A stretch of 64,000 nucleotides of DNA from the human T2T-CHM13v2.0 reference genome, Homo sapiens, in assembly GCA_009914755.4 (NCBI GenBank), contig CP086569.2, positions 1,600,001 to 1,664,000 on the forward strand, in the 5' to 3' direction. Under the pieces are notes generated by a model. It saw nothing but the letters and a program-made list of their open reading frames with translations, did no database searches and was not told where the DNA came from. Below, one piece after another: positions 16,286 through 16,950 of the stretch. The position numbers and the translations under genes were made by a program. How positions within the stretch are numbered: the stretch's first letter is position 1; every line of letters starts with the position of its first letter.

Positions 16286-16593
16286 GGCTGGGCACGGTAG
16301 CTTATGCCTGTAATCCCAGCATTTTGGGTGGCTGAGGCAGGTGGATCACCTGAGGTCAGGAGTTTAAGACCAGCCTGGCCAACATGGAGAAACCCCGTCT
16401 CTACTAAAAATACAAAAAAATTAGCTGGGCGTGGTGGCACATGCCTGTAATTCCAGCTACTTGGAAGGCTGAGGTACGAGAATCACTTGAACCCAGAGGG
16501 CAGAGGTGGCAGTGAGCCAAGATCGTGCCATTGCACTCTAGCCTGGGCAACAAGAGCAAAACTCTCTCTCAAAACAAAACAAACAAACAAAAA
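16286..16593 (+). mobile_element. Alu
   Basis: GGCTGGGCACGGTAGCTTATGCCTGTAATCCCAGCA... with a (CAAA)n tail. Flanked by aaaaaggttttaagtg / aaaaggtttaaagtg. Confidence 0.9.
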
Positions 16594-16604
16594 GGTTTAA
16601 AGTG

Positions 16605-16950
16605 GCCGGGTGTGGTGGCTCACGCCTGTAATCCCAGCATTTTGGGCGGCCGAGGCAGGCGGCTCACCTGAGGTCAGGAGTTCAAGACCAGCCTGGCCAA
16701 CATAGAGAAACCCTGTCTCTACTAAAAATACAAAAATTAGCTGAGCCTGGTGGTGGGCAACTGTAGTCCCAGCTACTTGGGAGGCTGAGGCAGGAGAATC
16801 CCTTGAACCCGGGAGGCGGAGGTTGCAGTGAGCTGAGATCTCGCCACTGCACTCCAGCCTTGGAGACAGAGTGAGACTCTGTCTTAAAATAAATAAATAA
16901 ATAAATAAATAAATGCAATCTGTCTTAAAATAAATAAATACATAAAAAAG
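16605..16950 (+). mobile_element. Alu with (AAAT)n-expanded tail, immediately downstream of the previous Alu's TSD
   Basis: GGCCGGGTGTGGTGGCTCACGCCTGTAATCC...gtcttaaaataaataaataaataaataaataaatg. Confidence 0.9.

What the first reader, a model, noticed from the sequence alone, without database searches (positions are those of the whole stretch)
16286..16950. Recurrent Alu-TSD-Alu head-to-tail dimers (also at 47915-48520 and 49361-49830)
In three places a second Alu starts immediately after the 3' target-site duplication of a first Alu. The junctions are aaaaaggtttaaagtg|GGCCGGGTG..., gaaaaggttctaag|GCCGGTCATGG... and acagaatagtgagtttcag|CCAGGTGTGG.... In the first case the TSD motif appears three times (aaaaaggttttaagtg / aaaaggtttaaagtg / aaaaagtttaaaaca), bracketing both Alus. 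Two explanations are possible. One is repeated retrotransposition into the A-rich TSD/tail of a resident Alu, since the L1 endonuclease prefers TT|AAAA. The other is unequal-crossover duplication of an Alu+TSD unit. The 49.36/49.69-kb pair both begin gccaggtgtggtggctca, which favours duplication there.
Basis: partly seen in the sequence, partly recalled or inferred. Interest (0 to 1): 0.5.

Follow-up and report, generated by a model that had tools for sequence, protein, structure and literature searches.

The report
Alus inserted beside resident Alus
In three places a second Alu retrotransposon landed in the same short target sequence as a neighbouring Alu, giving head-to-tail pairs; this pattern is already documented tens of thousands of times in the human genome, so it is ordinary.

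Summary
At 16271-16958, 47899-48516 and 49343-49855 two same-strand Alus sit head to tail, and the downstream Alu starts exactly where the 3' target-site duplication (TSD) of the upstream Alu ends. A third TSD copy follows the downstream Alu in pairs 1 and 3 but not in pair 2.

The pairs are not duplications.
- The partners belong to different subfamilies: Sq-like versus Sx-like in pairs 1 and 2, and Sc/Y-like versus a 140-bp AluJ-type left/right chimera in pair 3.
- They share no more private mutations than random Alu pairs in the window (1, 1 and 0; excess-identity z = 0.45, -0.08, 0.27).
- Genuine tandem Alu duplications elsewhere in the same window share 5-10 private mutations.

The best explanation is independent L1-mediated insertions that re-used a target preserved in a TSD copy. 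This is published: Cook et al. 2011 describe 38,753 full-length Alu pairs as inserted within the TSD size limit (<20 bp) of a second Alu, and name "catenated Alu clusters"/CLIQUEs. Insertion order is resolved only for pair 3, where the upstream Alu is younger. It could instead reflect a TSD reaching into the resident Alu, or gene conversion. Interest is low.

The parts
16271..16285 (+). Pair 1, TSD copy a (AAAAAGGTTTTAAGT). The upstream flank ...CATTT|AAAAA gives a canonical L1 endonuclease site (bottom strand TTTTT/AAA).
16286..16588 (+). Pair 1, upstream Alu. Body 16286-16570 plus an (AAAC)n-type tail. AluS with the Sq-like right-arm haplotype (244T, extra A in ACAAGA, 272A). 4/24 CpGs retained.
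16589..16603 (+). Pair 1, TSD copy b (AAAAAGGTTTAAAGT). It abuts the 5' G of the downstream Alu.
16604..16943 (+). Pair 1, downstream Alu. Body 16604-16884 plus a (TAAA)n tail that carries a 46-bp internal duplication. Sx-like; it lacks the Sq-like haplotype. 7/24 CpGs retained.
16944..16958 (+). Pair 1, TSD copy c (AAAAAAGTTTAAAAC). 12/15 ungapped and 12/13 in a local alignment to copy b.
47899..47914 (+). Pair 2, TSD copy a (AAGAAGAGGTTCTAAG).
47915..48228 (+). Pair 2, upstream Alu. Body 47916-48190 plus an A-rich tail. Carries the Sq-like right-arm haplotype.
48229..48244 (+). Pair 2, TSD copy b (AAGAAAAGGTTCTAAG). Its last G may equally be position 2 of the downstream Alu.
48245..48516 (+). 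Pair 2, downstream Alu. Sx/Sz-like; it lacks the Sq-like haplotype. No third TSD copy was detected after it.
48517..48930 (.). Quasi-palindromic (TA)n(TG)n...(CA)n block that follows the tail of the pair-2 downstream Alu. It may have erased or displaced that Alu's 3' TSD.
49343..49360 (+). Pair 3, TSD copy a (AAACAATAGTGAATTTCA).
49361..49667 (+). Pair 3, upstream Alu. Body 49361-49640 plus a fairly pure A-rich tail. Sc/Y-like (deletion at 65-66, 78A, 88T, 197G, 200G). Its first 18 nt are identical to those of the downstream element.
49668..49687 (+). Pair 3, TSD copy b (AAACAGAATAGTGAGTTTCA).
49688..49827 (+). Pair 3, downstream element. A 140-bp AluJ-type chimera made of left arm positions 2-48 joined to the right arm from about position 189 (116/140 identical to that model). 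Almost no A tail remains.
49837..49855 (+). Pair 3, TSD copy c (AAACAAGAAGGGTGAGTTT). 16/18 with one gap to copy b.

Best explanation
Each pair is the product of two separate L1-driven (target-primed reverse transcription) Alu insertions that used the same short target.

The first Alu duplicated its 15-20-bp target. One of the two TSD copies still offered an A-rich L1-endonuclease site. A later Alu of another subfamily was nicked in at that copy. The second-strand break fell the usual 15-16 nt or so downstream, so the same sequence was duplicated again. The result is TSD-Alu-TSD-Alu-TSD, with the middle copy serving both elements.

What is shown:
- The partners are in the same orientation.
- The downstream Alu abuts the upstream Alu's TSD exactly.
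- The partners belong to different subfamilies.
- There is no signature of post-insertion duplication.
- The target in pair 1 is a canonical TTTTT/AAA site.

What is inferred:
- Re-nicking by L1 ORF2p of a site preserved in a TSD copy.
- Ruler-like spacing between the two nicks.
- The order of insertion. In pair 3 the upstream Sc/Y-like Alu is the younger one and entered at the 5' TSD of the resident AluJ-type element. In pairs 1 and 2 the order is unresolved.

The structures have no evident function. Their consequence is a pair of close direct repeats, which are substrates for unequal recombination; that outcome is seen elsewhere in this window.
For: Different subfamilies:
- 16286 and 47916 carry a three-site linked right-arm haplotype (244T, extra A, 272A). 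All three states occur together in 8 of 51 window Alus, and 244T with 272A co-occur in 9. Their partners 16604 and 48244 carry none of these states.
- 49361 has the Sc/Y-type states, while 49688 has J-type states (204G, 214T, 215C, 220C).

No duplication signature:
- Shared private non-CpG mutations number 1, 1 and 0, ranking 320, 121 and 1195 of 1275 Alu pairs.
- Pair identity in excess of expectation gives z = 0.45, -0.08 and 0.27.
- Internal positive controls score 10, 8 and 5 shared mutations, and their copy-to-copy identity exceeds their identity to the consensus.

Reference check: the recalled AluSx reference differs from the window's own majority consensus at only 4 of 282 positions, all at CpG sites.

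TSDs: the copies bracketing the upstream Alu are significant, and third copies are present in pairs 1 and 3.

Not chance: P = 5e-5 under random placement.

Pair 3 order: the tail of the upstream Alu is purer, the downstream element is far more diverged (15% versus 8.7% at non-CpG positions, 2/15 versus 7/24 CpGs retained), and TSD copies a and b are better conserved than copy c.

Literature:
- Direct full-length Alu pairs with spacers of 24 bp or less are strongly over-represented (inverted:direct ratio 0.073). Cook et al. suggest an insertion preference within the TSD of a resident Alu as a possible cause.
- 38,753 full-length pairs (6.9%) are described as inserted within the TSD size limit (<20 bp) of a second Alu, and more than 113,000 catenated Alu clusters exist (PMC3215922).
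- The second nick lies 15-16 bp downstream of the first (PMC2836564).
Against: - Pair 2 has no detectable third TSD copy.
- In pair 1 the two age indicators disagree. TSD conservation suggests the upstream Alu is younger. Its divergence (15 versus 9 non-CpG differences; 4 versus 7 CpGs retained) suggests it is older. Neither difference is significant.
- The left arms of pair 1 share three minor variants (37T, 44C/T, 103A), ranking 41 of 1275 for the left arm only. This is a weak hint of local sequence exchange.
- The first 18 nt of the two pair-3 elements are identical. Plain independent insertion explains this only as a coincidence with probability about 0.02.
- No orthologous empty or half-filled sites could be examined.
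- The subfamily names rest on consensus sequences recalled from memory, although the haplotypes themselves are read directly from the window.
Confidence: 0.9

Rival explanations
1. Unequal crossover or replication slippage between the two TSD copies of a single Alu duplicated an Alu+TSD unit. The two Alus of a pair would then descend from one insertion.
For: - The TSD-Alu-TSD-Alu-TSD layout is exactly what such an exchange would give.
- The same window contains real tandem Alu duplications.
- Pair 3 shares its first 18 nt.
- The left arms of pair 1 share three minor variants.
Against: - The partners differ at linked subfamily-diagnostic sites.
- Right-arm identity in pair 1 is only 78%, and pair 3 is 71% identical over the aligned part.
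- Shared private mutations and excess identity are at the level of random Alu pairs, whereas true duplicates in the window score far higher.
- Tandem Repeats Finder at score >= 200 reports the true arrays at 1-1204 and 34011-35033 but none of the three flagged pairs.
Confidence: 0.03
2. Chance juxtaposition. In a window that is 24% Alu, two unrelated insertions simply landed next to each other without any re-use of a target.
For: Alu density is very high: 59 pieces and 15.1 kb in 64 kb. Random placement gives about 2 same-strand pairs with gaps of 60 bp or less.
Against: - Exact abutment to the TSD (within 1 bp) is expected 0.10 times, and P(>=3) = 5e-5.
- There are 10 direct versus 3 inverted junctions with gaps of 60 bp or less.
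- Third TSD copies in pairs 1 and 3 show that the same target was duplicated twice.
- The genome-wide excess of such pairs is documented.
Confidence: 0.02
3. A dimeric read-through transcript (Alu-tail-spacer-Alu) was retrotransposed as one unit from another locus.
For: Copy b in pairs 1 and 2 contains no run of four T, so a Pol III read-through is conceivable. The TSDs of pairs 1 and 2 resemble each other, 12/15 (context).
Against: - The inner repeat equals the outer left flank (14/15 and 15/16). A retro-copied dimer would not show this, because its TSDs would flank the whole dimer and be unrelated to the inner spacer.
- There is no flank homology between pairs 1 and 2, and in-register identity (78.6%) is not higher than off-register identity (82-83%).
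Confidence: 0.01

Closest known systems
Catenated Alu clusters / CLIQUEs and the 'TSD' insertion bias of Cook et al. 2011 (Mob DNA 2:10, PMC3215922)
   Same: Same-orientation Alus are separated only by the upstream tail plus a spacer of TSD length (15, 16 and 18-20 bp here). The pattern is attributed to L1-endonuclease target sites preserved or created by TSDs. Genome-wide, 38,753 full-length pairs (6.9%) are described this way, so about 2-4 are expected in a window with this many Alus.
   Different: Nothing essential differs. Pair 3 has a 140-bp partner, so it would not count as a 'full-length Alu pair' in that study. The published work is statistical and does not resolve the order of insertion or the triple-TSD anatomy of individual loci.
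Alu/Alu recombination-mediated tandem duplication (unequal homologous crossover)
   Same: It produces head-to-tail Alu arrays with repeated spacers. Clear examples lie in this same window (1-1212, 21328-22249, 34032-35044, 50493-51699).
   Different: True cases show shared private mutations, hybrid Alus and duplicated unique spacer. The three flagged pairs show none of these.
Alu-in-Alu nested insertion at the mid A-rich linker hotspot (Levy et al. 2010, PMC2836564)
   Same: A later Alu uses an A-rich L1-endonuclease site supplied by a resident Alu, in sense orientation, with the two nicks 15-16 bp apart.
   Different: Here the resident Alu is not interrupted. The insertion is in its flanking TSD, not in its internal linker.
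Microhomology-assisted 5' end attachment of L1/Alu cDNA (recalled from Zingler et al. 2005, Genome Res; not re-read here)
   Same: This would explain a seamless 5' junction when the top-strand break falls inside a resident Alu's 5' end. It fits the 18-nt identity in pair 3.
   Different: The published cases involve a few nucleotides of microhomology. Here up to about 18-24 nt of true homology would be used. This is inferred from one locus only.

Membership tests
TSD-spaced direct Alu pair (catenated Alu cluster / CLIQUE, Cook et al. 2011) | Both elements are Alu SINEs in the same orientation. | tested here: met
   blastn against Alu consensus sequences puts all six elements on the + strand.
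TSD-spaced direct Alu pair (catenated Alu cluster / CLIQUE, Cook et al. 2011) | The spacer between the upstream tail and the downstream 5' end is no longer than a TSD (less than about 20-24 bp). | tested here: met
   The spacers equal the TSD copy b: 15, 16 and 18-20 bp.
TSD-spaced direct Alu pair (catenated Alu cluster / CLIQUE, Cook et al. 2011) | The two elements are separate retrotransposition events. | tested here: met
   The partners carry different subfamily haplotypes. They show no excess of shared private mutations or identity.
TSD-spaced direct Alu pair (catenated Alu cluster / CLIQUE, Cook et al. 2011) | An L1-endonuclease-type target (TTTT/AA-like) lies at the start of the TSD. | tested here: inconclusive
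   Pair 1 is canonical (TTTTT/AAA on the bottom strand). Pairs 2 and 3 have weaker variants (TCTT/AT, GTTT/AT), read by eye. No scoring model was applied.
TSD-spaced direct Alu pair (catenated Alu cluster / CLIQUE, Cook et al. 2011) | The same target was duplicated twice, leaving three TSD copies. | tested here: inconclusive
   Three copies are present in pairs 1 and 3. In pair 2 the third copy is absent or erased.
Tandem duplication of an Alu+TSD unit (unequal crossover) | The copies share post-insertion (private, non-CpG) mutations, and copy-to-copy identity exceeds copy-to-consensus identity. | tested here: not met
   Shared private mutations are 1, 1 and 0. Pair identities are 0.833, 0.879 and 0.714, each below the partners' identity to the consensus. 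Control clusters in the window meet the criterion.
Tandem duplication of an Alu+TSD unit (unequal crossover) | Both copies belong to the same subfamily. | tested here: not met
Alu/Alu NAHR duplication | A hybrid (mosaic) Alu plus a duplicated unique spacer. | tested here: not met
   No hybrid element and no duplicated unique sequence occur in the three pairs. Both are present in the 34032-35044 cluster.
Alu-in-Alu nested insertion (mid-linker hotspot) | The resident Alu is split into two fragments that flank the younger Alu. | tested here: not met
   The resident Alus are contiguous. The pair-3 downstream element has an internal deletion, not an insertion.

The most novel reading that the evidence does not exclude
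In pair 3 the second-strand break for the younger Alu fell about 18-24 nt inside the resident AluJ-type element. The resident element's 5' end then base-paired with the new Alu cDNA and primed second-strand synthesis. The effective TSD would be about 40 nt, and the first 18 nt of the younger Alu, including three already-decayed CpG sites, would be copied from its older neighbour. If this were general, homology with a resident Alu would explain why such junctions look exact, and it would be a cryptic route for transferring old mutations into new insertions.
Probability: 0.2. Interest if true: 0.3.

Novelty: already known. Interest (0 to 1): 0.08.

Why it matters
It matters little beyond correct annotation. 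These are ordinary members of a genome-wide class of Alu clusters created by the target preference of the L1 endonuclease. The useful outcome is a clean separation, within a single window, of two processes that give look-alike head-to-tail Alu arrays. One is repeated insertion into one target (the three flagged pairs). The other is genuine unequal-crossover duplication (four or five other clusters). A simple shared-private-mutation test tells them apart. Close direct Alu pairs are also the substrate for later unequal recombination, and this VNTR-rich and Alu-rich window illustrates that.

Tried and rejected
- Paralogy of pairs 1 and 2. Their TSDs match 12/15 and both have an Sq-like upstream Alu. 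However, blastn finds no flank homology, and in-register identity is no higher than off-register identity. Rejected.
- A third TSD copy for pair 2, sought within 110 nt and then across 48517-49100. Only chance-level matches were found.
- Tandem Repeats Finder as an independent duplication detector. At score >= 200 it reports 1-1204 and 34011-35033 but none of the flagged pairs. It also misses the real 21.3-22.2-kb array, so it is only a partial control.
- Rfam scan of the whole window: nothing at gathering threshold.
- Ordering the insertions in pairs 1 and 2 from CpG retention, non-CpG divergence and TSD divergence. The indicators are weak and, for pair 1, contradictory.
- Treating element 49688-49827 as a free right monomer. 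The chimeric left/right model fits better: score 92 versus 74, and 7 versus 14 mismatches over the first 47 nt.
- The first literature query for 'tandem Alu' and 'head-to-tail' gave nothing relevant.
- Fetching primate orthologues was considered and not attempted. The DNA collections offered are viral, metagenomic and prokaryotic. The exact-protein contig look-up would at best return near-identical ape sequence, which must already carry Alus of this age.

Full report
**What is there**

The window is primate-type DNA with an unusually high Alu load. A blastn scan with three Alu consensus sequences finds 59 Alu pieces covering 15.1 kb of 64 kb. I recalled those consensus sequences from memory. 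The AluSx one differs from the window's own majority-rule Alu consensus at only 4 of 282 positions, all at CpG sites, so the reference is validated by the data.

At the three places named in the finding there are two same-strand Alus each:
- Pair 1: 16286-16570 and 16604-16884.
- Pair 2: 47916-48190 and 48244-48516.
- Pair 3: 49361-49640 and 49688-49827.

In each pair the upstream Alu is bracketed by a direct repeat, and the 3' copy of that repeat ends exactly at the first base of the downstream Alu:
- Pair 1: AAAAAGGTTTTAAGT / AAAAAGGTTTAAAGT, 14/15.
- Pair 2: AAGAAGAGGTTCTAAG / AAGAAAAGGTTCTAAG, 15/16.
- Pair 3: AAACAATAGTGAATTTCA / AAACAGAATAGTGAGTTTCA, one mismatch and one 2-nt gap.

Each of these beats the best match of the same query in about 47 other Alu 3' flanks from the window.

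A third copy follows the downstream Alu in pair 1 (16944-16958) and in pair 3 (49837-49855). Both exceed all null flanks under local alignment. Pair 2 has none. Its downstream Alu runs into a roughly 410-bp quasi-palindromic (TA)n(TG)n...(CA)n block.

The third copy is not an independent observation. It follows logically from the geometry: once one Alu's TSD abuts another Alu that was itself inserted with a TSD, the outer flank must repeat the same motif. The real observation is the exact abutment. Random placement of the same 59 elements gives 0.10 such junctions, with P(>=3) = 5e-5.

**Duplication or separate insertions?**

I aligned 51 Alus from the window and compared all 1275 pairs.

At 202 non-CpG positions where the J, S and Y consensus sequences agree, the flagged pairs share 1, 1 and 0 derived states. 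These rank 320, 121 and 1195 of 1275.

Pair identity in excess of what each member's identity to the consensus predicts gives z = 0.45, -0.08 and 0.27.

The window supplies its own positive controls:
- 21328/21647 share 10 private states.
- 620/935 share 8.
- 34395/34752 share 5.
- In these pairs copy-to-copy identity (0.91, 0.905) exceeds identity to the consensus.

The partners also differ in subfamily:
- 16286 and 47916 carry a tightly linked three-site right-arm haplotype: 244T, an extra A giving ACAAGA, and 272A. I recall this as the AluSq type. All three states occur together in 8 of 51 window Alus. Their partners carry none of the three states.
- 49361 has Sc/Y-type states: the 65-66 deletion, 78A, 88T, 197G and 200G.
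- 49688-49827 has J-type states (204G, 214T, 215C, 220C). It is a 140-bp chimera of left arm 2-48 joined to the right arm from about position 189, with 116/140 bases identical to that model.

The two Alus of each pair are therefore different retrotransposition events.

**Caveats**

A looser sensitivity analysis shows that the left arms of pair 1 share three minor variants (37T, 44C/T, 103A). This ranks 41 of 1275 for the left arm, while the right arms share none.

The first 18 nt of the two pair-3 elements are identical, including three CpG-decay states. Only 1 of 39 5'-complete Alus in the window matches like this, and the product of the per-site frequencies is about 0.02.

Neither observation restores the duplication model, because the rest of each element is unrelated. 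Both could reflect short gene conversion. That process is reported to act preferentially on Alus within about 10 kb (Aleshin and Zhi 2010, as summarised in PMC8230782).

For pair 3 there is another possibility: a TSD that extends into the resident element. If the top-strand break fell about 18-24 nt inside the resident Alu, that Alu's 5' end would pair perfectly with the 3' end of the new cDNA and prime second-strand synthesis. The junction would look exact, and the younger Alu would inherit the older one's decayed CpGs. This is inference from one locus. I give it about 0.2.

**Mechanism**

The TSDs start with an A run. In pair 1 that run is preceded by TTT, which gives the canonical L1-endonuclease site (bottom strand TTTTT/AAA). 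Pairs 2 and 3 have weaker variants.

Published work places the second nick 15-16 bp downstream of the first (Levy et al. 2010, PMC2836564). The TSDs here are 15, 16 and 18-20 bp. Re-nicking a site preserved in a TSD copy would therefore regenerate the same TSD and place the new Alu flush against the old one.

**Order of insertion**

In pair 3 the upstream Alu is younger. The evidence is its subfamily, its divergence (8.7% versus 15% at non-CpG positions), its purer tail, and copies a and b being better conserved than copy c. It therefore re-used the original nick site at the 5' TSD of the resident element.

In pairs 1 and 2 the order is unresolved. TSD conservation favours the same order. In pair 1, however, the upstream Alu looks somewhat older (15 versus 9 non-CpG differences; 4 versus 7 CpGs retained), and neither difference is significant.

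**Comparison with what is known**

This is a described genome-wide pattern. Cook et al. 2011 (PMC3215922) report the following:
- A strong excess of direct over inverted full-length Alu pairs at spacers of 24 bp or less (inverted:direct ratio 0.073).
- 38,753 full-length pairs (6.9%) described as inserted within the TSD size limit (<20 bp) of a second Alu.
- More than 113,000 'catenated Alu clusters'.
- The name CLIQUEs for the wider L1-endonuclease-induced clusters.

At that rate a window with this many Alus should hold about two to four such pairs, and it holds three. The junction counts fit the published bias: 10 direct versus 3 inverted at gaps of 60 bp or less.

**Other ideas that were checked**

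Pairs 1 and 2 are not paralogous copies of one dimer. Their flanks show no homology, and in-register identity is not elevated.

A retro-copied dimeric transcript is excluded because the inner spacer matches the outer left flank.

**Verdict**

Its second explanation, and its leaning towards duplication for the 49.4-kb pair, are wrong for these loci. The phenomenon is already known, and interest is low.

Noticed in passing
window 1-1212 (- strand): At least four tandem copies of a unit made of an Alu, a (CA)n-rich tail and AAAATTTAAAGAATA. Tandem Repeats Finder gives period 319, 3.8 copies and 88% matches. The copies share private mutations (for example CACTATTCCAG and the ATCAG variant; 620/935 share 8). 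This is a true duplication array, and it runs off the start of the window.
   Followed up: partly
window 21328-22249 (- strand): Three head-to-tail Alus derived by duplication. 21328 and 21647 share 10 private non-CpG mutations and are 91% identical, versus 85-87% to the consensus. The third copy shares a subset of these in a mosaic pattern.
   Followed up: partly
window 34032-35044 (- strand): A textbook Alu/Alu unequal-crossover product. The middle Alu (34395-34676) has an Sc/Y-type left arm like 34032-34327 and an Sq-like right arm like 34752-35044, with which it shares 5 private states. The roughly 70-bp unique spacer (gcagtatctgg...gtgattgcag) is duplicated. AluY-like 34032-34327 has a perfect 14-bp TSD, AAAAGGTGATTGCA.
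   Followed up: partly
window 50493-51100 and 51146-51699: An old tandem duplication of about 650 bp that includes unique flank plus an Alu and its TSDs (80% identity over 608 bp). The two Alus are 96% identical in the left arm but 83% in the right arm, which suggests later gene conversion or a mosaic origin.
   Followed up: partly
window 24865-25030 and 25150-25313: An AluJ right-arm fragment and the adjacent full AluJ share private changes (GAGGTGGGAGG, GAGGCTAGGAG). They are 85.5% identical to each other, versus about 82% to the consensus. This indicates partial duplication or conversion.
   Followed up: no
window 48517-48930: A roughly 410-bp quasi-palindromic AT/GT-rich block. It starts with (TA)n(TG)n and ends with (CA)n, with many 45-63-nt inverted repeats of 71-93% complementarity. 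It grows out of the tail of Alu 48244-48516. It is a potential cruciform-forming or unstable sequence.
   Followed up: partly
window 6282-6905, 12846-13272, 14039-14589, 23616-24368, 36638-37074, 46324-47074: The window is dense in minisatellites/VNTRs: periods 234 (x2.7), 61 (x7), 17 (x32), 30 (x25, 95% matches), 49 (x8.9) and 53 (x14.5). This suggests a recombination-prone, possibly subtelomeric-like region.
   Followed up: no
window 52464-53230, 53937-54350, 59696-60820, 61638-62540 (also 54781-55405): Very long degenerate tetranucleotide arrays of (AGAT)n and its complement (TCTA)n, from 100 to nearly 300 copies each, with the strand of the motif flipping between blocks. There is also a (TG/TA)-rich array.
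   Followed up: no
window about 16873-16939: A 46-bp internal tandem duplication of the 3' end of Alu 16604-16884 together with its (TAAA)n tail. CTGTCTTAAAATAAATAAATA occurs twice.
   Followed up: no
window 16271-16285 versus 47899-47914: The TSDs of pairs 1 and 2 resemble each other (AAAAAGGTTTTAAGT versus AGAAGAGGTTCTAAGT, 12/15), and both pairs have an Sq-like upstream Alu. The flanks are not homologous, so this is a coincidence or a reflection of target preference.
   Followed up: yes
window 9222-9651 and 27755-28201: Other composite Alu structures. At 9.2-9.65 kb an AluJ on the - strand is split by a + strand AluJ fragment, a nested inverted insertion. At 27922-28201 an Sc-like Alu lies directly upstream of a J-type right-monomer fragment (27755-27901), with no clear TSD.
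   Followed up: no
whole window: No Rfam family reaches its gathering threshold anywhere in the 64 kb, even though a quarter of the sequence is 7SL-derived Alu.
   Followed up: no
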